Source: Trypanosoma brucei (lineage: Eukaryota). Taken from it: a stretch of 64,000 bases of DNA. Positions 12,931 through 42,966 of the stretch are shown here, one piece after another (the first letter of the stretch is position 1; each line of letters starts with the position of its first letter). The stretch covers positions 1,056,001-1,120,000 of the forward strand of contig CP000071.1 of assembly GCA_000002445.1 (NCBI GenBank), given 5' to 3'. The notes under the pieces were generated by a model that ran no database searches, had not been told where the DNA came from, and saw only the letters and a list, made by a program, of their open reading frames with translations. A program made the position numbers and the translations under genes.

Positions 12931-15717
12931 TTATTCTTCCACTTCCCCTTCATACTCCCCATCACCCTCTAGTGCCTCTTCATCACCCTCTGTTCCATCA
13001 TCCTCAATCTCATTATCCAGTTCCTCCTCTTCTAGAACCGTGTAAAACTCCTTCGCTCTTGGACACGCATGGACGGAGGCATTGTTGAAGTCCAACAATC
13101 GGATATTATCCAGCCGTGTGCTACGACTAAGAGCCACATACGCCTGACCAGGAGAAAAGAAGCGATGGATTGCCACTTCCACGTGCGAAATTGTCAAACC
13201 TTGCGCCTTGTGAACCGTCATTGCCCATGCTTGGCGCAGGGGAAGTTGTGTACGCGTGGCAACGGGTTGATCCCCCATGTACCACTGATGCGAACTGGGT
13301 GATATGAAGGCGTAGACATGCTTTGGGAGACGTTTACTACCATTTGCGAACCCGCCATCTTCAACCGCACCACTGTCGGAGGATGTGTGGTTTCCCTCCC
13401 GTAGGTCCAACCTAACAATAGGTAAGCGCGTGAGACGAACGTGTTGCGGTGCAATGCCTCCCAAATACATCTCTAGGGGATGCACGGCATTCGCAGACTC
13501 AGTTTTGCCAAGACCAACAAGACGCAAGATGTCTCGGCAATGTGTGTTTCCATATACGCAGCCATAACTTGCGTCTTCAGGGCGGCGAATACCACGCTCA
13601 CGCAGGTAATAGAAAAGAGACTGACCAAGGGCGGTGTCGACACAGCGGAACGCATCTTGTAATGTAGGCAACCCTGCGCGCTCCAACAATTCTTGTCCAC
13701 GGGCCGAGGGGAAATGGCGTTCACGCGGAGCCCGAAGAACAAGTTCAACAAGCTCAAGCGGATGGAGAAAACCGACCACCTCACCAACGGACCCATTGAC
13801 TAGACCAAGTCGAAGCGAAATGTTCTGAAGTACCATCACTCGCGTACCAACCTTTAGTGCAAGATCTGTTGGAAGTGTGCTGTCCTCAAACCGTACCCAA
13901 GGTTGCGATGGTTGTGTACCTGTAGTTGTCTCTTCAGTCGTTTCAGGTTCAGTTTCATGAGTGCTGTAGGCATCATAAGCTCGGTACACTTGAAGGGGAC
14001 GCATTGTGTCTTCCTCCGTCACAGAATTAGCACCATTACTGCTGCCAGTCTGTTGTGAGGAACCGTCGTTTGGTGATGGATAAATTGGAAGGCCCTTGGG
14101 TTCGAGCGCGGCAAAATACTTTGCATTACGCATTTCCACCTCCTTGTTTGTTGCGCAGAGTCGCACGTGCCGATCTTTCTCTGCCGCTGCTGGCGTTGTC
14201 TCTGCGTCGGTAAGTGGTAGCACACCATCATTTCCGGCATCCTCATCCTTCTTTTTGCGTGACTTCGCGCTGGATTTCGAAGCAACAGTACGAGATAACA
14301 ATAGTTCGTATGACTCAGGTGACAGTGATCCGACTCGAAGCTCGTCAAGGACCTGCTGAAACGCCAAATCATCGTGCTGCCTGAATTTCTTATGAAGAAT
14401 GACGGTTATTAGATTCAACGAGGTCCATGTACTCGTCTCAAAGCAGTACTGTAGTTTGGACGGCGCCGGTGTCCCATCAGTTGGATCACCACCTTCTTGC
14501 GCTTCGGCATTTTCCTCCGTCTTTTGTTGTGGCTTATTGCGCGGTGGAATAGGCGGTAACTGCAGGAAGTCCCCACATAGAATTACCTGAATACCACCGA
14601 ATGGTTCATTACGACGGCGTATAGCGCGTGCAATCACATCTAACTTATCAAGTAGCAGGGGATCCATCATTGAAATCTCGTCGATGATGAGTGTTTGGCA
14701 GTAACGCCATCGACCAGCCGCACGCCTACTGCGGCGAACCCACTTTAATAACTGACGCGCATCCCCATCTCCAAACTTCACGCCGGCAAAACTATTCACA
14801 GTTGAGCCGCGAACATTGAGAGCGGCTACTCCAGTAGTTGCCGTCACATATACGCAGCGGCGTTTGTTGTGCCGAAGTTGGTAAACGATCTCGCGGATGA
14901 GAAGTGACTTTCCAGAGCCTGCCCCACCCGTTATGAATAAGTTGCGCCCCTTTAATGCAAGCCTTAGTGCGCGCTGTTGCTCTGGACTGAGTGATGTTAA
15001 AATGGGAAGTTGGCTATCAGCGTCAGCATCACTGAAGTGGGTTTGTCCCTCGCTAGCCCCCTCTGCTTTTCCCTGAGCCGATATCTTCGCCTCAGTACCC
15101 ACCGGTTGTGTGCGTTCAGCAACCCCTAACTTCGAGAGATATTCTTTATCATCCGTTACTTCAGTAGGTTCAGCGGCTGCTTTTGCTCGGAGGCGCTTCT
15201 TTTTCTCCTCCTCGCGCCGCAGAGCTTCCTCCTTCAACAGCTGCATCAGTTGCTTACTTTCCTCATCCACAAGTTTCTCATCGTCATCATCATCTATGGC
15301 AACGTCAGAAGCACCTCCTTTTCCCGGAGCACTTCCTTCTATACCATTGGCTCTTCTTGCAGTGTTAAACGCACTCGCTCCCACGGTTCGACCACTTCGC
15401 CGCTGCTTCGATTTGGTTACGGCAGCAGCTTTTGTTTTTCCACCTCCGACTTTCCGTCGCCTCGTCATGTGTTCCTCAGAAATCCGCGGCGGCTCAAGTG
15501 GCGGTGGTGGGGAGTCGATTTTAATGGCCGCTCGCCCGCGTTTCTCCACCGGTTCCGCCTTTGCAGTGCGGGAGCGGGCCGCAATGCCACTCACCAGCGG
15601 CGGTTCATTTGGTTGAGTGCTGCGGTTGAGGCGATTGCCGCATGTGGTGAAGTCAACGCGTTGAATCCGCAGTGCCACACGTGAGGGACGCCATACGGCG
15701 CTTAGACGGGAGAGCAT
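12931..15717 (-). CDS. PIF5: PIF1-family 5'-3' DNA helicase with N-terminal mitochondrial presequence and about 230-aa basic low-complexity extension (928 aa); I recall this as PIF5-like
   Basis: Walker A LFITGGAGSGKSLLIREIV. PIF1 signature blocks: RLCATNKEVEMRNAKYF, VMVLQNISLRLGLVNGSVGEVVGF, and C-terminal MTVHKAQGLTISHVEVAI. The N-terminus MLSRLSAVWRPSRVALRIQR is an Arg-rich amphipathic presequence. The acidic C-terminal tail is EEEELDNEIEDDGTEGDEE. The PIF5 name is from memory of kinetoplastid PIF1 paralogues, not from a search. Confidence 0.85.
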   Translation of the reverse strand: MLSRLSAVWRPSRVALRIQRVDFTTCGNRLNRSTQPNEPPLVSGIAARSRTAKAEPVEKRGRAAIKIDSPPPPLEPPRISEEHMTRRRKVGGGKTKAAAVTKSKQRRSGRTVGASAFNTARRANGIEGSAPGKGGASDVAIDDDDDEKLVDEESKQLMQLLKEEALRREEEKKKRLRAKAAAEPTEVTDDKEYLSKLGVAERTQPVGTEAKISAQGKAEGASEGQTHFSDADADSQLPILTSLSPEQQRALRLALKGRNLFITGGAGSGKSLLIREIVYQLRHNKRRCVYVTATTGVAALNVRGSTVNSFAGVKFGDGDARQLLKWVRRSRRAAGRWRYCQTLIIDEISMMDPLLLDKLDVIARAIRRRNEPFGGIQVILCGDFLQLPPIPPRNKPQQKTEENAEAQEGGDPTDGTPAPSKLQYCFETSTWTSLNLITVILHKKFRQHDDLAFQQVLDELRVGSLSPESYELLLSRTVASKSSAKSRKKKDEDAGNDGVLPLTDAETTPAAAEKDRHVRLCATNKEVEMRNAKYFAALEPKGLPIYPSPNDGSSQQTGSSNGANSVTEEDTMRPLQVYRAYDAYSTHETEPETTEETTTGTQPSQPWVRFEDSTLPTDLALKVGTRVMVLQNISLRLGLVNGSVGEVVGFLHPLELVELVLRAPRERHFPSARGQELLERAGLPTLQDAFRCVDTALGQSLFYYLRERGIRRPEDASYGCVYGNTHCRDILRLVGLGKTESANAVHPLEMYLGGIAPQHVRLTRLPIVRLDLREGNHTSSDSGAVEDGGFANGSKRLPKHVYAFISPSSHQWYMGDQPVATRTQLPLRQAWAMTVHKAQGLTISHVEVAIHRFFSPGQAYVALSRSTRLDNIRLLDFNNASVHACPRAKEFYTVLEEEELDNEIEDDGTEGDEEALEGDGEYEGEVEE

Positions 15718-18320
15718 TTGCGTGTTTATTTAAAAACAACAAAAATTCAAATAGTTGATTCAGAAGTAGCCTAAAATTATTATTATTTTTTTTAAAAAAG
15801 AAAACAACGACAACCCCACCAACGGAAACAATGCGTGAGATCGGTGGAAGGACCAACGAGTAAAAAGGGGAAAAGTGTCAACAGTTTTGCGCCCTACCTA
15901 CGCGTAGCGGTTATGATCAGGCTGCCTTTGTGTGACGTGTTACTGCGTTATCACTGCTTATTGTTGTTCCTTTGGTTAGTGCAAAAAAGTAAAAGAAAAA
16001 GAAAAAGAGAAATTACCGTTGAAAAGTGCACACATACCAAGAGAGAGATGAGCCGTGCAGGTGCAGAAAGGTTCAACATTACAGAAGTATCAAATCATAA
16101 TATTTGTAGTTATACTTCACCCACCGTTATCTTCAATCATTCCCATGTTCCATTTCTCCACCAGCTCACGTCCTCTCTTCAGTTCTTTTCTGCGCTCCCC
16201 ATTCTTTTTTTCTTTTTTGGTTTTATTGAGGAAAGGAGGAATGGATGCGGTGATGCAATGACGAGCCGGTGGCGTCACAAACTGAAATCATTGCAACGCA
16301 CATGCACAGAGAAACACACACACGAAAAAAAAAGAAAAAAGGAGCCGAGAGAAAGAAATGAATGACCGAAAGCTGATGGGAGCGTCGAAGAAAAGAAAAA
16401 AAAGAAAGCTATACAAAAGGGGGAAAAAAAAACAAGAAACATAGGGGAACGAAAAAGAAGAAACCAGACTGGGGTTGCAGAAGCCGAATAAGGGGGAAAA
16501 AGAATAATGGGGAATTAGAGGAAGAGGATCCGGTACGCGGCAAGACAGAGGCCACATACAAAACGGAATCAAACGCCGTTAAATTAAAGAAGCAGAGAGA
16601 GAGAGGTAAAGAGAAAACAAAACAGACGAAAAAAAAAAAGAAAAGAAGAAAGGGGTTACGGCGGAACAACTCCACCAGAGTTGACGCTGTTTTCTCGATA
16701 TTGCTTTCCCCATCATAAATCCTCATTGATGCTTTTCTTTACTTCTTTCGCTTCATTTCGTGTCTTCTATTTTTTTCCCCCCCCCCCTCCTCTCTCCATC
16801 AGTGACGCGTATAAATATGTATGTATACAAAAAATATAAACATACATGAAATGAAACAGACAGCCAACTAAGAAAAATCTGTTTTAATGCTGCCGTAGAC
16901 AAGCGCACACGCGACACCCAAACGGGGAAGAAAAAAAAAAAAGAGAAATGGAGAAACCTTCATTAAAAGTTTCGCTGAGGGCGAAGCAGTGGATGATAAG
17001 ACGAGGACACAAACACAAAAACACACAAGAAGGGGGGGGGGGAAAAAAAGGAGAACTAAAAGAAGACACAACATTAAATATTTTAAATATATACAAATAC
17101 ACCAAATAACCGGATCCTTCACCACTCCCAATGTGACGAGAGGAAGAAAATGCAGAGTTGGGTGAAAACAGATATAAAAAGAAACAAAAACAAAAACAAG
17201 AAACGAAGCTGATGAGTACATAAAGATACAAAAAGTAAAAAAGAAAAAAAAAGAAAAAGAGGGAAAGGGAGAGAGAAGCGGTACTTGTGCAAAACAACAA
17301 CAACATCAACAAAACACACACACACACACACAAAAGGAAGCAAAAAAACAAAAAAACAAACTCCCCCAATAAAATAGCAACAATCCGAACTTGGCGTAAA
17401 AAACAAAAAAAACGCCAGAGACAAGATGGCTACGAAATATACGCCCCAAAACCGCATGCATATTGACATAAACTTCCCTCCCTCACCATCCATTAAAAAA
17501 AAAAACCCCTTCTTCAAACTGTAATTGCTCGTCACGTTAATAACATCAAAGGAGAGGAAAGAAAGCGGAGGGGGAATGCACCATGAGGAAGCAGATGCAC
17601 ACCAATGCATAAATAAAATTAACATAAAATATACCGCAAAAAATGCTGCAAATATAAAATTTGTGATGCATGAACGCGTATATGATATCTCTTCTCTATT
17701 GTTTTCTCATATCTCTCCGCCATCATTCGTCCACACTCCCATCACATAATGCCAAACGGAAGTTACGATAGCAATAACAAAAATGATAGTGAGAAGGAAA
17801 GAAGAGTAAAGTTTTTTTTCTTTTAAACAAAACAAAACAAAATGTATTGTTGCACCCGTTTTCTCTCCCCCTTTTATTTACCTTTTTTTTTTCACACCAC
17901 ATTTTTTTTTCCTCGAACCCGATGGCACAATCCGTGAATTCAATTTCAGCGAATATCTCTACAATTTTTTTCTGTTTACTGATCCGATTGGTATTACGCT
18001 ACAGCTTTTAAAGCTATTTATATTAGTTTCGGTTTCCTTTCCTTTCTTTTTTTTTTTTCATTACTTATTTCTTATTTCCACCTTTCCTGTTCACACATGT
18101 TCCCTGCCATCCCCAAATTATCAAATAAAACAATACGAAAAAAACAAACAAACAAACAAAAAGTACGGCGGGACAGCAGGGATTGCAGTAAAATGGAGGG
18201 TGGCGGGGACTGATGGCGTTTGAATTAAGTCCCCACTTCCGACTTAATCATGACTGTACAACGTAATTTTTTTTTTCCTTTAGAGAAAGAGACGAAGCAG
18301 CGAGAAGACGAGAAGGAAAA

Positions 18321-26669: not shown

Positions 26670-28031
26670 CTAAAGGTAAACCACGGCCTCGCATGGGTAA
26701 CACTCGTTCACTGAATCGTAGCCTAGAGCGCACAACTCAACTTTATCAATGAATACAGGGCTCTCACATAGCGAAACATTTGCAAAACGCCGTAGAACCT
26801 CCGATGCATTAAACGGTAAATTTTTTCCGCCGCTTTGTTGTTTCCCTTCACCCGTACGCCACTTCGTGTTCATCAGCGTGACGTGAAGTAACTTACTCTC
26901 CGACACACGTGGGTCATCACATATGAGTTCCCCAAAACTGCTGTGAACGATGTCCTGCAATGCTCTAACCGTCGCGGTGGATTCCTCGTCTGCCAATCCC
27001 ATATACAACACATTTGCCTTCTGCACATGTTGACCTCGGCTAGTCATCACGTGCAGTCCACCTAAGCGAATGGGAATTCCCACACTGTCATCAGGCCCTG
27101 CTTTACCTTTATGTAGGTGTTGCTGTTGCTTCCACCCATAGATCTGGTCTTGCAGTACCTGCATACATTCTACAGCCAGTGCAACATCTTCACATGTCGG
27201 AAGGGATAACATGAGGAGGGTTAAATGCGTGCGTGGTGCACTAGTAAATATCTCCTCCGTTACACCGTTTGCAGGATCAACACAACACTGTTTCATCTCC
27301 CACAAAAGTGCCTCCGCCCTTTCGCCAAACACTTTTACCTTTCCGATGGGTAATGCAATGAAGTGAGTATACGGTTTCTTGTAGAAATGCTTTCCGACCC
27401 TCCCACCGAACGTCGAACCAACGTTTTTTTCACCGCTTTCGTGGGTTTCCACAGCATATTTCCTCTTGGAGGCGCTTCCCTCCCCTACCACCTCACGAGA
27501 ATCGGGAGCGCTGTCAACCACTTCTGCACTCGCAGACTCATTTCCGCGTGCATGACCTTCAGTGGCAAATATTCTGTAGCAACGATTCTGAGGGAAACGG
27601 ACAACACGAATGGAGGAATCATGCGATATGCCGTCATCTCTGCAATTATGAACAGGAACGACGTGCATTCCACTGGTTCCACTGACATTTTTCTTATCAA
27701 CACTGGCACCAACAGACGCCATAACAGACGGGGACACGGCAAGACAGTAACCGCAAATAAGACGGGCGTCATAACTAACCTTACCGCAAGAGTTGCAGGT
27801 CCAACCACACCCATTTGTTAGGCACTTGCAGCTCCTTTTTCCGTTGCATTCCTTCTCATTTCTTTTATTAGTGGATTCATTTGAACCGTAACGCGCCGCT
27901 AATCGGTTTCGGGCCATATTGTCGAGTGCCTTCTCACGGTGCACCCACTCCACCGCAGCCGCGCGCTCAGTGACATCGGTAGAAATCGACGAAAGAGCCC
28001 TCCACGACATATCCTCCGACTTATTATACAA
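26670..28031 (-). CDS. RanBP2-type zinc finger + 2H-phosphoesterase (LigT/AKAP18/ASCC1-like) domain protein, 453 aa
   Basis: Mid-protein GCGWTCNSCGKVSYDARLICGYC fits the ZnF_RBZ pattern W-x-C-x2-C-x3-N-x6-C-x2-C. The C-terminal half has two H-x-T-x tetrapeptides about 90 aa apart (…PRTHLTLLMLSL… and …SKLLHVTLMNTKW…), which is diagnostic of the 2H phosphoesterase superfamily, within a region with a matching beta/alpha hydrophobic pattern (HFIALPIGKVKVFGERAEALLWEM). Confidence 0.65.
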   Translation of the reverse strand: MYNKSEDMSWRALSSISTDVTERAAAVEWVHREKALDNMARNRLAARYGSNESTNKRNEKECNGKRSCKCLTNGCGWTCNSCGKVSYDARLICGYCLAVSPSVMASVGASVDKKNVSGTSGMHVVPVHNCRDDGISHDSSIRVVRFPQNRCYRIFATEGHARGNESASAEVVDSAPDSREVVGEGSASKRKYAVETHESGEKNVGSTFGGRVGKHFYKKPYTHFIALPIGKVKVFGERAEALLWEMKQCCVDPANGVTEEIFTSAPRTHLTLLMLSLPTCEDVALAVECMQVLQDQIYGWKQQQHLHKGKAGPDDSVGIPIRLGGLHVMTSRGQHVQKANVLYMGLADEESTATVRALQDIVHSSFGELICDDPRVSESKLLHVTLMNTKWRTGEGKQQSGGKNLPFNASEVLRRFANVSLCESPVFIDKVELCALGYDSVNECYPCEAVVYL

Positions 28032-28235: not shown

Positions 28236-28499
28236 CCTTAATGGATTCGCGGGCCACCTATTACTGATGTCGACTCGCGCACAGTAATACGAGAGTAAAA
28301 TTATTAATAAGGTAAAATTTGCATCTGAGGTCGAGGCCAGGCAAGTAAGACGGGGAAAAAATGCAGGAATGGAGAAGGTAGAAAGTATGGAGACACACAT
28401 TCCACAGTGTAGTACTAACACGTACAGATGTCCATGCAGAACAGATCGCTCTCCCGCTTCACTCCCTGAGGCTCGGTCGACCGAAAATACATAAATGCA
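28236..28499 (-). repeat. 264-bp dispersed repeat, copy A (upstream of the ZnF/2H-phosphoesterase gene)
   Basis: 262/264 identical to 36296..36559 (mismatches at 28277 and 28292) with no indels. Lies 205-468 nt upstream of the ATG at 28031. Confidence 0.9.
28341..28399 (-). promoter_or_regulatory. polypyrimidine tract (coding-strand) inside repeat copy A: candidate trans-splicing signal
   Basis: Plus strand gcaagtaagacggggaaaaaatgcaggaatggagaaggtagaaagtatggagacacaca is about 90% purine, giving a coding-strand polyY tract. Coding-strand AG dinucleotides follow immediately downstream (plus-strand ct at about 28330-28300). Confidence 0.4.
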
Positions 28500-29283
28500 G
28501 GTCAAACCCCCTAAACTGAGTGCATCGGACCATTGAATAATATCATTATTTCCTTACTTCGACCCATTCTGTTTGACCCTTACCCCATACAAAATCCAAA
28601 AGAAAAACAAAAAAGGTAAGTGAAGTGGAAAAATACTGCGGCACCTAATCATGGGCCCAGAATTATTTAATATATACCAAATTTTTATGAAAATGATTTC
28701 CTAGAAACGACTTGGACAACGCCTTCAGCGACACCTCGCGAGGAAGAAAAAAGTAACAAACTCTTCCCCACTCTGCCTTATATTTTATTACAGCTCCTCA
28801 CGGATGCGAAACGAACGGTAAACAACACAGTTATAATAGGTTAAGGAAAAATTGACGACCATTTTGTCACCAACTGATTTCTTCGAAGAAGCGATTTAAA
28901 ATATGCACCCGTGTGCATCGGAATCACGTAAAATATGGTTAAGATAATGAACTCTTCTGATTATTTGTTTAGAATACTAAATACTGTAAACAAATTACCG
29001 AAATAATCCACTAGACAGTGAACAACATCGTGATAAGACGCCGGCGTCGTAAGTACATCCTACGACCGCTACCCACAGGGTATATTGAAACAACATATCA
29101 ATATGTAAAAAAAAAATATTTGTAACCATCCCCACGAAAAAAAAACAGTAATATTAACAAAAACGTTTTTCTTTAGACCTTCATGTTAAAAAAAATATTA
29201 ATAACAAAAGTAACTTTGAACGTCCAGAGAGCAGTATCAGAAATCCTAACGCTTCTACATGTACTTACAAAGATACCTATCAC

Positions 29284-31652
29284 ACACACACACACACACA
29301 CACGTATGCCATTGAAGAGCGTAGGAAGGAAGAGGTTGCGATGGAAGGGGCGTGTCACTAAACATGTAAAAAAAAATGGTCACCGCAGAAAAAAAAAACG
29401 ATATAGAACTCCCATTTGTAAGCCGCAATGATGGATCGATTCAGATATTGGTGATGGAAGGGTTTCGATATGGTTCTAATTGGCTGTGGGTTCCCGCCGT
29501 CTGGGAGAATCATTAGAGGGGGCATGAACATCCTCCGCCTTCTTTGTAATAGCTTTGCCGTTTTCGTCAAGAACATCACATATACGTGCCGCAGGTATCA
29601 GTAAAAACACAAGAGGAATGCTGATGAGTGGAGTGCCAAAGTGACCAAGAAGTAGAAGCCACTTCACATTACTGAAGTCGCATGGACCCACCGTAATGTC
29701 TGATTGCACATTCCATACGTATTCCATCAAAAGCCATCCAAGTGTGTTGGAAACGGAACGGCCAAAATGCGCACATCCTGCAAGTACCGCATACACCATA
29801 CTTTCAGACCCACGGGGACAGAGCCTCGAAATGAGCATTACAGTTGGCATGAAGTGCATCATGTAGCACACCTGCTGTATAATTTGGTCACCAAGAACGA
29901 ATACAACGTGATCGCTAACATACGGACGGTTCCATCGCTCCACAATGATTATATCAAAGATACTCGAAACTATCTCAATCAAAGTTGTTACGATGAATGT
30001 TAGGCGATAGCTGCGCTTTGAGAATACGTATCTGAATAACGTCACACCAATAACACCACCCATAGTCCCAATCACGTTACCCACAGTGTTGTAGTAAAAG
30101 TATGAAAAGTTAGGACCACCAGGGAAACAATCGGGGGTCGCCATGAAGACATTGTCCATTGCGCCACGAAGTTGGATGTACGTGACCCTCGAGATGAATG
30201 TGAACATATTTGCCTTCGCGATCACAAGTGGAAGGGCAACGAAACCGAGTCCACAGAGTGTAAATGACGCCACAACACTGGTTATTAGCAGCTGCAACCT
30301 TGTGCCAAGGACTGTCACGAGAACCATACCGATGGCGCCAAGTGTGAGAAGCATGCAGTAAAACACAACCTTCTTGTTGCGAGCAAACACTTCTCGATTC
30401 ACTTCAAAGGCACCACAGCAACAAGGTAGTATCCGTGCTCCGCCCTCACCCACTTCCTCGGTATCCGATGGATTGTCCAGTGAGCCACTTGTTGCTTCGC
30501 TCCCCTGTAACCTCACGGCGTCGGCTTCATGCTCCAGCTTCTTTTCGCGAATAATCTTCAGGTCGTACGCACGTTCCTCTCGGTTCTTCCGTTCACCATA
30601 CCAATTCAGTATGAAGAATATCGTCGGCACCAACTGCATCCCAGCAGAGATAAACACAGCCACTCGCTGCAACCTCTTATCGGTAAGTGGTCCTACAATG
30701 GAGGACGCAACAAGGGAGCCAACCAAAAGGCACCACCAAACCCAACTCACAAGCGATGGGCCCGCCAATGGGACGCGGCGAATCAAGCGACTGTAATGCC
30801 CTTGTGTGAGGATATCAAGGTTAGCAACTGTGAAGGTAATGACAAAAACAAGGAAGCCAGCCACCGGTACATACGACAACTCTCCGGGCAGTGAACCGTA
30901 CACAATAGCGAGGGTGGAACCCACCACACAGGATAGAGCGAGGTACCATCGCTTCGTGTACCCAAATAACGCAAAGAGGTCACTGAACATAGCTGCAAAC
31001 GGCTTCACTGCGTAACCCAACGACGACATACCACCCATCAGTTGGTAAAGCTTTGCATCAGCACCAAAGGTGTAGGTAAACATTGGAAAAAGTGAGGATC
31101 GAATGATGTTGTCAGCAATTCCTTTGCCGAAGAGCTCGCAGAAACCAAGGGCGAAAACAAACTTCGGTCCGAACGCTTCCACAGCAGTGCCGAGTACGGG
31201 AATGCTCCACACGCATGGCAGCTTTCGGAACAAGGCCCTTGCGTCAGGGTGTACAGGACGAGCATCCATTGTTTCCTCTGCAGAGAGTTTGTGAGTTGTA
31301 CACTCAGCTTCGTGAGCTTGGGGTGCGGAATGTTGAGGTGGTTGGTCCTGGCATGCGTTCGGTGACGTGGTCATTGCTGGTACTCGAATATGTTCCCACA
31401 AGTATGAATGTTTGTCACTATCGTTGCTTTGGTTTCGACTTTATCTCCAGAACAAAATGGAAGGGTTACCTTTTCGATACAGCGGGTAGAGGACAACATA
31501 GTGGCAGCACAAGAGAGCGGTTGAAGGAAAGAAATCGCAATGAACATTGAGAACGGAATCAGGCCGTCAAATAGCGCGTGAAACCACTGCAGCACTTGCT
31601 GGTACCGTACGTCAACTGGATACAAAGCGCTTTGCGGTATTGTATAATGTTA
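29284..31652 (-). repeat. tandem segmental repeat unit 1 (transporter gene plus about 190 bp of 3' flank and about 250 bp of 5' flank)
   Basis: Near-identical to 32550..35016 and 36923..39210. The 3' homology to the other units starts at the (CA)n tract at 29284. The 5' homology to unit 2 ends at …tattgtataatgtta (31652). Confidence 0.85.
29476..31401 (-). CDS. multi-pass membrane transporter, 641 aa, tandem copy 1 (I recall folate/biopterin transporter BT1 family)
   Basis: 641-aa ORF with about 12 hydrophobic segments and a large central hydrophilic loop (REKKLEHEADAVRLQGSEATSG…). 94-97% identical to the ORFs at 32840..34765 and 37216..39141. The family assignment rests on recollection that trypanosomes carry a three-gene folate/pteridine transporter cluster of this size. 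No diagnostic motif was verified. Confidence 0.8.
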   Translation of the reverse strand: MWEHIRVPAMTTSPNACQDQPPQHSAPQAHEAECTTHKLSAEETMDARPVHPDARALFRKLPCVWSIPVLGTAVEAFGPKFVFALGFCELFGKGIADNIIRSSLFPMFTYTFGADAKLYQLMGGMSSLGYAVKPFAAMFSDLFALFGYTKRWYLALSCVVGSTLAIVYGSLPGELSYVPVAGFLVFVITFTVANLDILTQGHYSRLIRRVPLAGPSLVSWVWWCLLVGSLVASSIVGPLTDKRLQRVAVFISAGMQLVPTIFFILNWYGERKNREERAYDLKIIREKKLEHEADAVRLQGSEATSGSLDNPSDTEEVGEGGARILPCCCGAFEVNREVFARNKKVVFYCMLLTLGAIGMVLVTVLGTRLQLLITSVVASFTLCGLGFVALPLVIAKANMFTFISRVTYIQLRGAMDNVFMATPDCFPGGPNFSYFYYNTVGNVIGTMGGVIGVTLFRYVFSKRSYRLTFIVTTLIEIVSSIFDIIIVERWNRPYVSDHVVFVLGDQIIQQVCYMMHFMPTVMLISRLCPRGSESMVYAVLAGCAHFGRSVSNTLGWLLMEYVWNVQSDITVGPCDFSNVKWLLLLGHFGTPLISIPLVFLLIPAARICDVLDENGKAITKKAEDVHAPSNDSPRRREPTAN

Positions 31653-32549
31653 TGCAGTATCATCAAGGCATCTACAAGATCGGAAGTCTATCTTCAGAGA
31701 CCTGTCTACATACAGTTCATGGAGGTACTTACAGTTGTTACTGCACTGCCCCGTTACACTCTCACCTTTTCGTTTACTTGGCGTACAGTAAACATGTGTC
31801 ACGCAGCCCAAGGGGCAGCCACACTTTGCGGGGCCTTCTCACCTTTTCTATTTACGTGAACATGAAAAAAAAATGGAGAAGACAGTGTGGAGGAAATACA
31901 ATGTTCTGGCAACATTTTCTCGTGTTCGTGAGGCAATATGGTGAGCACTCAATAAACAGCGATTATTGGGGTAAGACAATAAACAAAAAAATGCGTGGAA
32001 CAAACCCGTCGAGATACATCGAGTGGAGGGTAAATAAGAGGTACAAACACACATCTCCAGGTGTATAGAGAGAAATGTGTTGACGCTCCATCGGTTACCA
32101 TTGGCATCCAGCTCGAATGGAAAAAAAAAGATAGCCACAAAAAGATAGGGAAAAGAAAGACAAGGGACCACTAAATCCTTTCCATCACAAACAAAAAAGG
32201 TGTAGTCTGGAAAAAAAAATAGAAGAACACAGACGAAGTTGCGGTAACAAAATATAAAATAAGGTGCTTTCCTGACCCCAATAGGAAAACAACAACAACA
32301 TAAAGAAAAAATCCACAAACGATATAAAAAAATTTTTCACGTGATAAGAGGAGAAAACTAAAGTCACAACCAAAAAGAAAATTCATCCACCATATTTGCT
32401 TGGGGGAAAATCACATCCACACATGCGCAGAATATAGTCCACCTGCTCATAGAAGAAAAAAAAAACAGCCATAATAAAAAATAAAAACGTCTTTTCAAAA
32501 ATATAAAAAAAATAAAGTCATGGTAAATAGAATTACTTTGCTTCACGTT

Positions 32550-40056: not shown

Positions 40057-42966
40057 CTACTTTTTCGACTCTGGCGTAACAACAGCTTGTTTCAGGGACT
40101 CCATAAACTTGACAATGGAGGCATCGTCAGTATATATAACGTCCGACAAATCTGACACGCCGTTTCCACCACGAGCACCACTGTGGTGTGTTGTTGTGGG
40201 ATTCATCCTCGTTTTGATGTGCCGCGCTTCCGATCCGTTAGCGTCTGTTCGCGAGAACCTCGGATACGGGTAACGCATGTCAAGCAGCATGGTGGCCTCG
40301 TTTTCTACTGTTTCAAGCAGCTGTGCGAAGTGGGCGTATTCGGGGTTATCTTGGTACCTCGCTTGTATCCAAGCAAATATAACAGTTCCCCACATAATAT
40401 GAATGTTGAAGAAAGCATCCATCAAGAGGATGTTGTCTGGTCGCAGACTGCAGCTATCAAGTGGAACCGCTGTTGCTGTTGGTGTTTCCATATCGTACGA
40501 GTGCAGCGTCGGTTGGATCATTAAAACACAATTATCTACAGATTCCCGCATTAGCCAGTGTCGCTTGAATGTCGACTCATCGGGTGATATATTAAGGACC
40601 ATGAAGTACTCTGAACGACGCAAGTTAAACACAAACGAAGGAAATAAGGTGAAGCACGGACGAAGTCGCAGCGACTCCGGGGAGCCAGGTGTGAACGAAC
40701 CGTAGCGTCGCACAAACCGCACAAGCACTGTGTCCAACCATCTTTTTGCATCGTTCCACTTGCTTGGATGCTTTTCCAATATGCTTACTGTCATGCGGGC
40801 GAGTACTGTGGCCGCACATGTCTGATCGAATGTGTCGTATTCAGAAAAATACTGCGGGTTAGCCGTGCTCACTCCATCAGCTGTTATTGTAACGGGGGCA
40901 ATGGGAAGTGCCACACTTGTCACGCGGATACGGGATTCGCCGAGTGGGGTGGTGAAATGCGTCACAAATTGTATGAAACGGTTTTGCTGCTGTTGCGGCA
41001 TACCATCCACTTTATTTAGTGTCGCTGTGTCAAAAACCACAGTGTATGTGGTTCCCTGGTCTATAGTACTAACACGCCAGTCTGTTGTCCCACCGACTCC
41101 AATTTCAATGGGCGAGATGGAAGCGCGGTGGGCTTTCGTTCCCGATGTTTTTTCCGCAGCCACACAAGGCCCTAAAACTCCAGAGACGAGTGTGTCGGCA
41201 GATGTGTGCACATGGAGTTTCACACCAAAACCGCTGTTAGCCACTAGAGCACCGGGGGCAGAACCATCAATATCACCAGCACTGCTAATACCACTGCTTT
41301 CGACGCCTGGGGGGCGAAGGTCACAGAGGTCAAAATACCGCTGAAGGGAAATAGTGAACATTTGGTGGTCGAATGTGTCACCACAGATGAAGGTACCACC
41401 CGTTTGGTCCACTGCCTGTCGCATTTCCAGTATGCCTATTTGATCAAAACTCTCGGCAAATACGCTAAGGCTTGCGTTCACATCTAAAAGACGTAGTTGT
41501 ATTTCGTTGTAGAATTTGAAGGCAGCTTCGTAGTAGGGTGTCTCACCCTCGATAATATCACGATGAAACCTCATCATGCTCTCCTTTTCAATGCTAACGA
41601 CGGTGCCCGGACCACGAGTACAAGGACCTCCAGTAAAGAGCAGCACCCGACCCGCCTTCCGTACGGGTGCCACACCAGCTGGCGCAGCGCCCGACATCTC
41701 CTTCTTTACAGGGACTTCGGGCAGGGCTTCAAGCAGTCGCACAGCGGCACTCACCGCCGTCCCAGTTGCTCTCAGAGGACGTTTATTAACGGGTGTCACT
41801 CCATCGTGGCACTGAAGTCCTTCAATGCTTGTTGTTAGTGTAAATTCACACTCCTCCAGTGGTACCAGGAAACGACCGCGAGCTGGGAGGCCATCATTCA
41901 GCTGCAACATATTCCCGAGCTCCGCAGTGGTATAGGCTCGATCGCCCCGTATGCTGTAACATCGTGACAGGGACGAACCGCTCAGATCCCACACAGATAC
42001 GCGAGCCCCAAATGAAACGAGCCCAATGAGCGATTGTGGGGGAAGCCAGTTGAGGCAGCGTTGGATGTTACACTTAAGGGCCTCTAGCTCTTCGACTGCG
42101 ATGCAAGTGTCAATAATGAACACAAACGTCGGAGAAAAGCCGACACCTCTCGTTGCCTGAGCTGTTGTGGGTTGCTCTAGTGGTAAAATGTACTCCACAG
42201 TGTCATTGTGTAGTGCAGGGTGTTCAGGTCTGTAGTGGGGTGGCAGCTGGTTACGGCGTTGGCACGAAAAACACACCCAAAACTTCCCCTCTTCCCTATA
42301 GCAGTGGTGGCTCCAGAACGCCCCACAGTTTTGGCATTGTTGACCACATGCCGTGGGATCGCCAATAACCATACGAGATGCATCGATGGGAAACAAAGGA
42401 GTGTACATGCAAGCGAGGGGGATAACCATCTCTGGAAGTGTGAGGGCTGCAGCAGAGGGCGCTTCCTGCTTTCCGTCACGGGTATGGTTTGGGTATGTGC
42501 TCCAAGTCCACCTCAAACCATTCTCATCAGTGCATTCCGCTGCTGGTGGTGGTGGCGGTACGTGGGAAGCAGTTGTAGCGGATGCGCCACTACCCGTCGG
42601 TGCGACCGCTCCGCCAACATGGGAAGCAGCAGCCGCTCCTACTGCCGTTGGTGGGGCAAACATGTTGGTGTCATTAGTGTTGGCAGGGTTATGTATACCT
42701 TGCTGAGGTGCGTATTGCTGCTGCCACGGCGTCTGGTTGGCATTATAATTGTAATTATTCATTTGCTGCTGCAACTGTGTGTACTGGTTCGAATACGTAC
42801 CCTCAGCGGTACCGCCCCCGTATTGAGCATTGTGGCCCTCCATGAGAGTAGCTGGGTCCTGATACGACACATAACCCTGCTTAACATCCTGGGTAGGATA
42901 CAACCCTTGATAATCCGCTTGCCGCGGGTAACCTCCGTAGGATTGCTGTGGTACGTGTCCTTGCAT
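40057..42966 (-). CDS. SEC23: COPII coat subunit Sec23 with about 150-aa Q/N/Y/P-rich N-terminal extension (969 aa as longest ORF)
   Basis: Sec23 N-terminal signature GLRWTWSTYPN (compare GVRFTWNVFPS), IPLACMYTPLF, and zinc finger CQNCGAFWSHHCYREEGKFWVCFSCQRRNQLPPHY (compare W-C-x-I-C-x-S-R-N-x-LPPQY). These are followed by trunk, beta-barrel, helical and gelsolin-like regions. Residues 1-150 are prion-like (QQSYGGYPRQADYQGLYPTQ…QMNNYNYNANQTPWQQQYAPQQG). In-frame Mets at positions 42, 69 and 102 are possible alternative starts. Confidence 0.8.
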   Translation of the reverse strand: MQGHVPQQSYGGYPRQADYQGLYPTQDVKQGYVSYQDPATLMEGHNAQYGGGTAEGTYSNQYTQLQQQMNNYNYNANQTPWQQQYAPQQGIHNPANTNDTNMFAPPTAVGAAAASHVGGAVAPTGSGASATTASHVPPPPPAAECTDENGLRWTWSTYPNHTRDGKQEAPSAAALTLPEMVIPLACMYTPLFPIDASRMVIGDPTACGQQCQNCGAFWSHHCYREEGKFWVCFSCQRRNQLPPHYRPEHPALHNDTVEYILPLEQPTTAQATRGVGFSPTFVFIIDTCIAVEELEALKCNIQRCLNWLPPQSLIGLVSFGARVSVWDLSGSSLSRCYSIRGDRAYTTAELGNMLQLNDGLPARGRFLVPLEECEFTLTTSIEGLQCHDGVTPVNKRPLRATGTAVSAAVRLLEALPEVPVKKEMSGAAPAGVAPVRKAGRVLLFTGGPCTRGPGTVVSIEKESMMRFHRDIIEGETPYYEAAFKFYNEIQLRLLDVNASLSVFAESFDQIGILEMRQAVDQTGGTFICGDTFDHQMFTISLQRYFDLCDLRPPGVESSGISSAGDIDGSAPGALVANSGFGVKLHVHTSADTLVSGVLGPCVAAEKTSGTKAHRASISPIEIGVGGTTDWRVSTIDQGTTYTVVFDTATLNKVDGMPQQQQNRFIQFVTHFTTPLGESRIRVTSVALPIAPVTITADGVSTANPQYFSEYDTFDQTCAATVLARMTVSILEKHPSKWNDAKRWLDTVLVRFVRRYGSFTPGSPESLRLRPCFTLFPSFVFNLRRSEYFMVLNISPDESTFKRHWLMRESVDNCVLMIQPTLHSYDMETPTATAVPLDSCSLRPDNILLMDAFFNIHIMWGTVIFAWIQARYQDNPEYAHFAQLLETVENEATMLLDMRYPYPRFSRTDANGSEARHIKTRMNPTTTHHSGARGGNGVSDLSDVIYTDDASIVKFMESLKQAVVTPESKK

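What the first reader, a model, noticed from the sequence alone, without database searches (positions are those of the whole stretch)
29284..39210. Triplicated 641-aa transporter array with mosaic (gene-conversion) copy 3 and an unrelated MPN gene embedded between copies 2 and 3
Three 94-97% identical ORFs sit in tandem. Copy 3 alternates between copy-1-like and copy-2-like blocks at least five times along its length. That pattern is the footprint of repeated gene conversion rather than simple divergence. Unit spacing is 3364 bp between copies 1 and 2 but 4376 bp between copies 2 and 3, because a 387-aa MPN- gene with its own 5' module occupies that spacer. Tandem nutrient-transporter arrays in trypanosomes are drug-uptake determinants. 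If these are folate/pteridine carriers, copy number and chimerism could shift antifolate sensitivity.
Basis: partly seen in the sequence, partly recalled or inferred. Interest (0 to 1): 0.6.

Follow-up and report, generated by a model that had tools for sequence, protein, structure and literature searches.

The report
Known T. brucei folate transporter array
This is the published three-gene folate transporter cluster (TbFT1-3) of Trypanosoma brucei chromosome 8, already shown to carry methotrexate into the parasite; the patchwork third copy is real and comes from short gene-conversion events, which is usual for trypanosome gene arrays.

Summary
Three minus-strand BT1-family genes lie 3364 and 4376 bp apart, with an MPN- gene between copies 2 and 3. 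Copy 3 switches between copy-1-like and copy-2-like sequence six times (7 runs against 30.4 expected, p<5e-6).

The window is T. brucei brucei TREU927 chromosome 8. The genes are Tb927.8.3620, .3630 and .3650, that is TbFT1-3. The interrupting gene is Tb927.8.3640, a putative COP9 signalosome subunit CSN6.

Dewar et al. 2016 (PMC5114424) already described the array, its interruption, and its role in folate, methotrexate and raltitrexed uptake. Mosaic copies in T. brucei tandem arrays are also a published general pattern (PMC1855330, PMC2854126).

What I add:
- FT3 is an FT2-type backbone carrying three short FT1-type tracts.
- Differences between copies sit in about 14 dense patches that assort independently.
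- 927 and gambiense differ at 8 coding sites in all three copies at once, which indicates concerted evolution.
- T. vivax has Sec24–CSN6–FT. FT3 is therefore the added element and the MPN gene is the original resident.
- T. congolense shares FT–CSN6–FT, with its own copies 99.6% identical.
- Some telomeric ESAG10 proteins carry FT-type tracts.

Verdict: real and correctly read, but already known. Interest is low.

The parts
29476..31374 (-). FT1 (copy 1, Tb927.8.3620) coding sequence, 632 aa from the first ATG. This is the 'alpha' haplotype.
   Evidence: ORF; ATG at codon 10; BT1 E=1.3e-157; identical to P0068/XP_847193
32840..34738 (-). FT2 (copy 2, Tb927.8.3630) coding sequence, 632 aa. This is the 'beta' haplotype.
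37216..39114 (-). FT3 (copy 3, Tb927.8.3650) coding sequence, 632 aa. It is a beta backbone with three alpha tracts.
   Evidence: (100% identical to P0001/XP_847196)
38835..38903 (-). Alpha (FT1-like) tract 1 in FT3, ORF nt 239-307, 10 informative sites. The maximum extent is ORF nt 209-361. It encodes the start of TM1 (KFVFALGFC...SS).
   Evidence: also present in gambiense FT3
38462..38469 (-). Alpha tract 2 in FT3, ORF nt 673-680, 5 informative sites. The maximum extent is nt 577-683. It is absent from FT3 of gambiense and equiperdum, so it varies between strains.
37975..38287 (-). Alpha tract 3 in FT3, ORF nt 855-1167, 6 informative sites. The maximum extent is nt 793-1218. Sites 862 and 1167 are found only in 927 and are shared by FT1 and FT3 alone, so the FT1-FT3 exchange is recent.
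35084..36190 (-). Tb927.8.3640, an MPN- protein and putative COP9 signalosome subunit 6. It is single-copy and lies between FT3 and FT2.
   Evidence: Pfam JAB + MitMem_reg; best PDB sequence matches are CSN6 (E=1.8e-9); named Csn6 in PMC4513851 Table 4; no JAMM motif
36296..36559 (-). It contains a polypyrimidine tract followed by AG.
28236..28499 (-). Repeat X, copy upstream of the AKAP7-like gene, downstream of FT1. It is 262/264 identical to the other copy.
29279..31655 (-). Full repeat unit of FT1: 254 bp 5' flank shared with FT2, the CDS, and about 195 bp of 3' flank ending at a (GT)n tract.
32546..35019 (-). Full repeat unit of FT2. Its 5' flank matches FT1 and its 3' flank matches FT3 for 296 bp.
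36920..39211 (-). Full repeat unit of FT3. Only 70 bp of 5' flank is shared. Both flanks are FT2-like.
40057..42966 (-). Upstream neighbour, a Sec23/Sec24-family COPII subunit. It is the conserved left border of the locus.
   Evidence: synteny in gambiense and T. vivax
26670..28031 (-). Downstream neighbour, an AKAP7 2'5' RNA ligase-like domain protein. It is the conserved right border.
   Evidence: synteny

Best explanation
The region is the TbFT1-3 folate transporter array of Trypanosoma brucei chromosome 8.

What the genes are. Three nearly identical genes encode 12-helix carriers of the folate-biopterin transporter (BT1) family, which have the major-facilitator fold. They lie in one polycistronic unit, and a single-copy CSN6-like gene sits between FT3 and FT2. 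[quoted passage not shown]

Why the copies stay alike. Repeated short, non-reciprocal gene conversions keep them about 96-99% identical. The tracts range from under 100 bp to a few hundred bp. They pass among all three copies, and therefore across the CSN6 gene without duplicating or deleting it. Protein sequences suggest exchange with the telomeric ESAG10 genes as well.

How the mosaic looks. Two old haplotypes persist: alpha (FT1) and beta (FT2). They differ in about 14 dense patches, most of them in transmembrane helices. FT3 is a beta-type copy that has picked up three alpha tracts. The set of patches it carries differs between strains.

Shown here:
- identity of the locus and membership of the BT1 family;
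- the mosaic and its statistical support;
- phylogenetic incompatibility between segments;
- strain-specific bases shared by all copies;
- synteny in other trypanosomes.

Taken from the literature: the transport function and the antifolate phenotype.

Inferred:
- the mechanism is conversion without crossover;
- FT1 is the donor and FT3 the recipient;
- FT copies are the donors of the FT-type tracts in ESAG10.
For: Identity. Copy 3 is 100% identical to XP_847196, a T. b. brucei TREU927 protein on a 2,481,190-bp contig. Pfam BT1 matches at E about 1e-158 over profile positions 1-431 of 432. The AlphaFold2 model has pLDDT 86 and every top PDB match is an MFS transporter.

Function. The array, its interruption by Tb927.8.3640, the folate Vmax drop of 4- to 10-fold and the >30-fold methotrexate/raltitrexed shift on RNAi are in PMC5114424.

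Conversion:
- 7 runs against 30.4 expected, p<5e-6. All 21 alpha sites fall in 3 runs, 0 of 500,000 permutations.
- Both FT3 flanks are beta-like.
- Outgroup polarisation gives 8 derived sites shared by FT1+FT3, all inside alpha tracts, against 15 shared by FT2+FT3 elsewhere.
- For seven sequences from three strains, the minimum number of recombination events (Rm) is at least 12. Neighbouring sites are far more compatible than distant ones: the permutation p was 0.0 for neighbourhoods of up to 5 sites and 0.001 for 8 sites.
- Eight CDS sites are fixed between 927 and gambiense in all three copies. Four of 264 sites in repeat X behave the same way.
- FT3 of gambiense carries beta at nt 673-680 where 927 carries alpha. 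FT3 of equiperdum is a different mosaic again.
- The alpha-to-beta junction between nt 307 and 362 recurs in the independently assembled gambiense FT3.

Age of the arrangement. T. congolense has FT–MPN–FT, and its two copies are 99.6% identical to each other but 73% to T. brucei. T. vivax has one FT.

No crossover. The MPN gene is single-copy in all three assemblies.

ESAG10. P0080 (aa 164-303) and P0076 (aa 231-297) carry FT-type residues at 10-20 diagnostic positions, inside otherwise ESAG10-type proteins.
Against: - The differences between FT1 and FT2 are themselves clustered (index of dispersion 5.4). At the level of patches, the order of alpha and beta in FT3 is no different from random (p=0.51). 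The site-level p-value therefore shows that each patch is inherited whole. It does not show six independent long-tract events.
- With three sequences alone, the donor and the recipient cannot be told apart.
- Outgroups are 27-33% diverged, so the polarisation is noisy.
- The gambiense assembly was ordered against 927, the equiperdum assembly is long-read and contains 1-nt deletions, and the Logan contig is short-read. Some differences between strains could be mis-assembly between 2.3-kb repeats.
- ESAG10 exchange rests on protein sequences only.
- No experiment separates the three isoforms functionally.
Confidence: 0.9

Rival explanations
1. FT3 is not the recombinant. FT2 and FT3 are sisters, and FT2 alone acquired its three distinctive patches (ORF nt 239-307, 673-680, 855-887) by ectopic conversion from a telomeric ESAG10 gene. 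The apparent FT1-like blocks in FT3 would then simply be the unchanged ancestral state.
For: At all three patches the FT2 residues (RCVLALGLS, TT, VLT, EQLEREADAA) are identical to those of ESAG10 proteins. FT2-unique sites (21) far outnumber FT3-unique sites (5) and are confined to three clusters. Exchange between FT genes and ESAG10 does occur.
Against: - T. congolense and T. vivax carry the FT2 (beta) state at several of these sites (KCVLALGLS, T103, EQ at 287-288). Beta is therefore ancestral there, and the alpha state shared by FT1 and FT3 is derived: 8 polarised sites.
- ESAG10-specific residues that lie between or next to the patches are absent from FT2 (HDM at 97-99, TVL.K at 282-286, G297). 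The donor tracts would have to be implausibly short and exact.
- Sites 862 and 1167 are 927-specific bases shared only by FT1 and FT3.
Confidence: 0.07
2. The mosaic is an assembly artefact. Reads from three 2.3-kb repeats that are 96-99% identical were mis-assigned, producing a chimeric consensus for copy 3.
For: Near-identical tandem repeats are a classic source of chimeric consensus. The T. equiperdum assembly shows only two copies plus frameshifts. A short-read Logan contig shows yet another combination.
Against: - The alpha tract at nt 239-307, followed by beta at 362-576 and a beta 3' half, recurs in the separately sequenced T. b. gambiense FT3.
- Informative differences lie at most 280 bp apart, which I judge to be well within the length of a single Sanger read (my own knowledge of read lengths).
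- The 264-bp repeat X shows the same strain-specific homogenisation. I judge it too short to be mis-assembled (my own assessment).
- The three deposited TREU927 proteins match the window exactly.
Confidence: 0.03
3. The blocks reflect convergent selection, not sequence transfer. The same amino-acid patches arose independently in FT1 and FT3 because they tune transport.
For: 39 of the 40 variable residues lie in predicted helices and 35 of these are in the membrane domain. Two thirds of the FT1-FT2 differences are non-synonymous.
Against: Shared patches are identical at synonymous positions too, for example nt 246, 258, 676 and 855. dN/dS is 0.4-0.5, not above 1. The non-coding flanks and repeat X show the same concerted pattern.
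Confidence: 0.01

Closest known systems
TbFT1-3 (Tb927.8.3620/3630/3650), Dewar et al. 2016, J Biol Chem 291:24768 (PMC5114424)
   Same: This is the same locus. The paper describes three folate transporter genes sharing about 96% nucleotide identity, in tandem, interrupted by the unrelated Tb927.8.3640 on chromosome 8. RNAi reduces folate and methotrexate uptake and confers resistance to methotrexate and raltitrexed.
   Different: Nothing differs in the object itself. The paper treats the three genes as one unit. In the passages I read, it does not describe the mosaic of FT3, concerted evolution, or synteny in other species.
Sequence mosaics and concerted evolution in T. brucei tandem gene arrays (Jackson 2007, PMC1855330; Jackson et al. 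2010, PMC2854126)
   Same: Duplicates in polycistronic arrays recombine into subspecies-specific mosaics. PHI and GARD tests are positive for most arrays, including the related chromosome 1 pteridine transporter (BT1) array.
   Different: The chromosome 8 FT array is not in Table 2 of the 2010 paper, and neither paper names it in the main text. Here the conversion also crosses an unrelated single-copy gene, and the same arrangement is homogenised separately in T. congolense.
ESAG10 (expression-site-associated gene 10), the BT1-family gene between duplicated promoters of about half of the bloodstream VSG expression sites (PMC2567434, PMC5070307)
   Same: It is 84-91% identical in amino acids to FT1-3 (PMC5114424; 89%) and belongs to the same family. 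It shares alpha patches with FT1 and beta patches with FT2.
   Different: ESAG10 is telomeric and lies in an RNA polymerase I expression-site unit (PMC2567434, PMC5070307). It has a 54-aa N-terminal extension and about 40 private substitutions. The window copies are chromosome-internal, and PMC5070307 describes them as RNA polymerase II transcribed.
Leishmania FT1, FT5 and BT1 folate/biopterin transporters
   Same: Same Pfam family, at 40-46% identity. They are folate and methotrexate carriers, and FT1 and FT5 are described as folate/methotrexate transporters in PMC5114424.
   Different: Leishmania has 14 FBT genes (PMC5114424). The link between loss or rearrangement of these transporters and methotrexate resistance is from my own knowledge and was not checked here. 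These are not orthologues of the array in this window.

Membership tests
BT1 / folate-biopterin transporter (FBT) family, Pfam PF03092 | Full-length match to the family profile above the curated threshold | tested here: met
   All three copies score 525-529 bits (cut-off 22), E about 1e-158, covering profile positions 1-431 of 432
BT1 / folate-biopterin transporter (FBT) family, Pfam PF03092 | Major-facilitator fold: two six-helix bundles joined by a cytoplasmic loop | tested here: met
   AF2 model with pLDDT 86 and pTM 0.85 shows helices either side of a low-confidence central loop. All top Foldseek PDB matches are MFS transporters with probability 1.00. No FBT member has a solved structure detectable by sequence.
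BT1 / folate-biopterin transporter (FBT) family, Pfam PF03092 | Transport of folate or pteridine substrates | not testable with these tools
   Shown experimentally for the array as a whole by RNAi and uptake kinetics (PMC5114424). Not resolved for individual copies.
TbFT1-3 locus (Tb927.8.3620-3650) | Sequence identity to the deposited TREU927 proteins and the same gene order | tested here: met
   P0001, P0067 and P0068 (XP_847196, XP_847194, XP_847193) equal the window translations from the first ATG. The order FT-FT-MPN-FT matches the description in PMC5114424.
Tandem array under concerted evolution by gene conversion | Phylogenetic incompatibility between adjacent segments of the same genes | tested here: met
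   Rm >= 12. The short-range PHI-like test gave permutation p of 0.0 for neighbourhoods of up to 5 sites and 0.001 for 8 sites. Polarised sites conflict: 8 for FT1+FT3 against 15 for FT2+FT3.
Tandem array under concerted evolution by gene conversion | Paralogues within a genome share lineage-specific substitutions that orthologues in a sister lineage lack | tested here: met
   8 CDS sites and 4 sites in repeat X are fixed between 927 and gambiense in all copies. T. congolense paralogues are 99.6% identical to each other against 73% to T. brucei, despite the shared FT–MPN–FT order.
Tandem array under concerted evolution by gene conversion | Direct observation of a non-reciprocal transfer event (donor unchanged) | not testable with these tools
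   This needs pedigrees, clonal lines or population haplotypes.
COP9 signalosome subunit 6 (for the interrupting MPN gene) | MPN domain without the JAMM metal site, plus the C-terminal helical region shared by CSN6, Rpn8 and eIF3f/h | tested here: met
   PF01398 and PF13012 both match. The sequence reads 'GWYAVGCNLSD' with no HxH. The best PDB sequence matches are CSN6 chains at E=1.8e-9.
COP9 signalosome subunit 6 (for the interrupting MPN gene) | Assembly into a CSN complex | not testable with these tools
   Assigned by BLAST only in PMC4513851 Table 4.

The most novel reading that the evidence does not exclude
FT1-3 and the telomeric ESAG10 genes may form one exchanging pool of short cassettes that encode transmembrane helices. 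Conversion would shuffle about 14 alpha/beta patches into strain-specific transporter isoforms. Selection would keep the two patch alleles apart while everything between them is homogenised. The resulting chimeras would differ in folate or antifolate affinity, so the array would hold standing variation for antifolate sensitivity and could draw on silent expression sites as a reservoir.
Probability: 0.15. Interest if true: 0.45.

Novelty: already known. Interest (0 to 1): 0.18.

Why it matters
The array is the main entry route for folate and classical antifolates into bloodstream T. brucei, and its loss is a resistance mechanism (PMC5114424). That point is already established.

The mosaic adds a smaller, practical point. 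FT1, FT2 and FT3 differ at 40 residues, and 39 of them lie in predicted helices. The combinations differ between strains. This has two consequences:
- Results from the pooled knockdown cannot be assigned to a single isoform.
- Read mapping and copy-specific reagents at this locus are unreliable.

The data also give a clean example of gene conversion that leaps over an unrelated single-copy gene and is maintained in two species. They further suggest traffic between a core housekeeping array and VSG expression sites.

Tried and rejected
- PHI-like test with a 20-site neighbourhood. It gave no signal; the observed value was above every permutation. The tracts are shorter than that window. Neighbourhoods of 1-8 sites were significant and 12 was not.
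- Patch-level runs test. Not significant (p=0.51). I therefore dropped the idea that FT3 consists of a few long alternating segments. The patches assort independently.
- Positive selection as the cause of the patches. dN/dS is 0.4-0.5, so this was rejected.
- Hydropathy-window prediction of transmembrane segments. It gave overlapping, unusable segments. I replaced it with AF2 secondary structure.
- Repeat X as an RNA gene. Rfam found no match anywhere in the window at gathering thresholds.
- Sequence search of the PDB with FT3. Nothing was found. Only fold search finds relatives.
- Homology between the long 3' spacers of the three copies beyond about 200-300 bp. Word-7 BLAST found none. The origin of the 890-bp FT2-FT1 spacer stays unexplained.
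- Literature search for exchange between ESAG10 and the chromosome 8 array. It returned nothing relevant.
- ESAG10 nucleotide sequences. The ESAG10 proteins are on no contig in the collection, so I could not obtain them. That comparison is at protein level only.
Full report
**1. What is in the sequence**

ORF listing shows three 641-codon ORFs on the minus strand. I call them copy 1 (A, 29476-31401), copy 2 (B, 32840-34765) and copy 3 (C, 37216-39141). A 387-codon ORF at 35084-36247 lies between B and C.

Start-to-start spacing is 3364 and 4376 bp. The 641-aa length comes from a TTG start. The first ATG is codon 10 in all three copies, and the deposited proteins are 632 aa.

Self-BLAST defines the repeat units:
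- A 29279-31655 matches B 32649-35019 at 96.6%.
- B 32546-34835 matches C 36920-39211 at 98.7%.
- A 29282-31471 matches C 37028-39211 at 97.0%.
- A separate 264-bp repeat, X, occurs at 28236-28499 and 36296-36559 at 99.2%.

Every ORF of 200 aa or more in the window is on the minus strand, apart from three that lie inside longer minus-strand ORFs. The layout is that of a trypanosomatid polycistronic unit.

**2. Identity**

Each copy matches Pfam BT1 (PF03092) end to end at E about 1e-158. Copy C is 100% identical to 'folate transporter, putative' of T. brucei brucei TREU927, on a 2,481,190-bp contig. The same 90% cluster holds the other two TREU927 proteins, three from T. b. gambiense and one from T. 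equiperdum.

From the gene order, A is Tb927.8.3620 (FT1), B is Tb927.8.3630 (FT2) and C is Tb927.8.3650 (FT3). The ORF between B and C is Tb927.8.3640.

An AlphaFold2 model of FT3 (pLDDT 86, pTM 0.85) matches only major-facilitator transporters in the PDB. No FBT-family structure is detectable by sequence.

**3. What is already published**

Dewar et al. 2016 (PMC5114424) found this array in genome-wide RNAi screens with methotrexate and raltitrexed. [quoted passage not shown]

Knockdown of FT1-3 had these effects:
- Folate uptake Vmax fell 4- to 10-fold, with no change in Km.
- Methotrexate and raltitrexed EC50 rose more than 30-fold.
- Cells became more sensitive to pyrimethamine.

Tb927.8.3640 is listed as the T. 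brucei Csn6 candidate in PMC4513851 Table 4. This agrees with:
- its JAB and MitMem_reg domains;
- its best PDB sequence matches, which are CSN6 chains (E=1.8e-9);
- its lack of a JAMM motif.

**4. The mosaic**

Among the three coding sequences, 75 sites vary. At 70 of them A and B differ and C matches one of the two. In order these read B, A x10, B x27, A x5, B x2, A x6, B x19. That is six switches.

- Runs test: 7 runs against 30.4 expected, z = -6.7, 0 of 200,000 permutations as extreme.
- The 21 A-like sites fall in three runs, 0 of 500,000 permutations.
- Both flanks of C are B-like.

C is therefore an FT2-type (beta) copy with three FT1-type (alpha) tracts:

| Tract | ORF nt | Window coordinates |
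|---|---|---|
| 1 | 239-307 | 38903-38835 |
| 2 | 673-680 | 38469-38462 |
| 3 | 855-1167 | 38287-37975 |

**5. A qualification**

The A-B differences are themselves strongly clustered:
- The median gap between differences is 3 nt.
- Identical stretches run up to 280 nt.
- The index of dispersion is 5.4, with 0 of 20,000 permutations as extreme.

The differences form 14 patches. 13 of the 14 patches are wholly alpha or wholly beta in C; among the nine patches with more than one site, only one is mixed. At patch level, however, the order of alpha and beta is no different from random (p=0.51).

The statistics therefore show that each patch is inherited whole and assorts independently. That indicates short tracts. 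They do not show a few long alternating segments.

dN/dS between copies is 0.4-0.5, so there is no sign of positive selection.

**6. Is C really the recombinant?**

Three sequences alone cannot decide this, so I used T. congolense (L004) and T. vivax (L005) as outgroups.
- Derived bases are shared by A+C at 8 sites, all inside the three alpha tracts.
- Derived bases are shared by B+C at 15 sites, all outside those tracts.

No single tree fits both sets.

The rival reading is that B alone received ESAG10-type patches. It is weakened for two reasons:
- The outgroups carry the B state at several of these sites.
- ESAG10-private residues lying between the patches are absent from B.

**7. Other strains**

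The T. b. gambiense locus (L001) is collinear with the window over 17.2 kb at 98.6% identity.

- Its FT3 has the same alpha tract at 239-307 followed by beta. This is an independent assembly, which argues against a chimeric consensus.
- It carries beta at 673-680 where 927 carries alpha.
- The copy at the FT3 position in T. equiperdum is beta at 239-307 and alpha at 362-384, a different mosaic again.
- For seven sequences, the minimum number of recombination events is 12.
- Neighbouring informative sites are much more compatible than distant ones. The permutation p was 0.0 for neighbourhoods of up to 5 sites and 0.001 for 8 sites.
- Eight coding sites differ between 927 and gambiense in all three copies at once.
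- Repeat X behaves the same way. Copies within a strain differ by 1-2 nt, while orthologues differ by 5-6 nt.
- Sites 862 and 1167 are 927-specific and are shared only by FT1 and FT3. They mark a recent exchange of at least about 300 bp.

Together this is concerted evolution with ongoing conversion.

**8. History of the locus**

T. vivax has Sec23/24–MPN–FT–AKAP7-like with a single FT. The MPN gene is therefore the original resident, and the FT copy upstream of it is the added element.

In T. congolense, a contig carries the 3' end of an FT gene, then the MPN gene, then a full FT gene. The FT–MPN–FT order is therefore shared with T. brucei. The two T. congolense copies are 99.6% identical over the last 564 nt but only 73% identical to the T. 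brucei copies.

Two histories fit. The duplication may predate the species split, with the copies homogenised separately since. Or it may have arisen twice at the same spot. The first is more parsimonious.

The MPN gene is single-copy in every assembly. Exchanges involving FT3 must therefore be conversions without crossover.

The finer history of the flanks remains unresolved:
- FT2 has the FT1-type 5' flank and the FT3-type 3' flank.
- Homology of the FT1 3' flank stops exactly at a (GT)n tract.
- The 890-bp FT2-FT1 spacer has no relative in the window.

**9. ESAG10**

The next-closest protein cluster is ESAG10, at 89% identity. ESAG10 proteins share beta patches with FT2 (aa 80-88, 102-103, 225-227, 287-296). 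They share alpha patches with FT1 (aa 123-128, 539-550, 594).

Two ESAG10 proteins carry clear FT-type tracts inside an otherwise ESAG10-type sequence:
- P0080, at aa 164-303;
- P0076, from TREU927, at aa 231-297.

This suggests ectopic conversion between the chromosome 8 array and telomeric expression sites. It rests on protein sequences only. I found no paper in the held library describing it.

**10. Where the variable residues lie**

Of the 40 residues that vary among FT1-3, 39 fall in predicted helices (my own count from the positions and the helix list):
- 35 are in membrane-domain helices, including TM1, TM2, TM4, TM5 and several C-domain helices.
- 4 are in the long cytoplasmic-loop helix.

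Most of the folded protein is helical, so this is not a meaningful enrichment. Whether the isoforms differ in function is unknown.

**11. Comparison and verdict**

The locus, its interruption, its family and its pharmacological role are all published. Subspecies-specific mosaics in T. brucei tandem arrays are a published general finding. The published examples include the related chromosome 1 pteridine transporter array, but the chromosome 8 FT array is not in that table (PMC2854126 Table 2; PMC1855330).

The incremental points are:
- the tract map of FT3;
- conversion across CSN6 in two species;
- the FT-type tracts in ESAG10.

These are modest and unsurprising to a specialist. Interest is 0.18.

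Noticed in passing
window 28236-28499 and 36296-36559: A 264-bp repeat (262/264 identical) lies just upstream of two unrelated genes, the AKAP7-like gene and the CSN6-like gene. Each copy is the next element downstream of an FT copy. The repeat contains a polypyrimidine tract plus AG, so it may be a trans-splice acceptor module. The two copies are homogenised within each strain: 1-2 differences within a strain against 5-6 between 927 and gambiense.
   Followed up: partly
window 29281-29302, 32658-32673, 37032-37049: A (GT)n microsatellite, read on the coding strand, lies about 170-195 bp after each FT stop codon. The FT1 3' flank stops matching FT2 and FT3 exactly at this tract, so it may be a duplication or conversion boundary.
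   Followed up: partly
window 31656-32545: The spacer of about 890 bp between the FT2 unit and the FT1 unit has no similarity to the other FT 3' spacers or to anything else in the window. A simple tandem duplication would not leave it there, so its origin is unexplained.
   Followed up: partly
proteins P0080 (aa 164-303) and P0076 (aa 231-297), ORF numbering of the window copies: Two telomeric ESAG10 proteins carry FT-type residues at 10-20 consecutive diagnostic positions where six other ESAG10 proteins agree with each other. This suggests ectopic conversion from the chromosome 8 array into VSG expression sites.
   Followed up: partly
L004 (T. congolense IL3000 contig CAEQ01002012) 81-644, 1625-2737, 2989-4908: The contig carries an FT 3' fragment, then the MPN gene, then a full FT. 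The two FT copies are 99.6% identical over 564 nt and share about 225 bp of 3' flank. This is the same FT–CSN6–FT arrangement as in T. brucei, homogenised independently.
   Followed up: yes
L002 (T. equiperdum CM010679) 14113-16483: This assembly has only two FT copies. The one downstream of the MPN gene has the FT2-type upstream flank but an FT1-like coding sequence, with 1-nt deletions at ORF nt 855 and 1781. It is either a real FT2/FT1 deletion by unequal crossover that left a pseudogene, or a collapsed long-read assembly.
   Followed up: partly
L003 (Logan ERR7929156 contig 654) 1-4464: This FT gene has an upstream flank matching the FT3-specific flank as far as window 39475. Beyond that it joins unrelated sequence carrying a methyltransferase-like ORF, not Sec24. 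Its coding sequence is yet another alpha/beta combination. It could be another locus, another strain's rearrangement, or a short-read chimera.
   Followed up: no
window 40057-42966: The upstream neighbour is a 969-aa Sec23/Sec24-family protein with a Gln/Pro-rich N-terminal region of about 150 aa. Its position beside the FT locus is conserved in T. b. gambiense and T. vivax.
   Followed up: no
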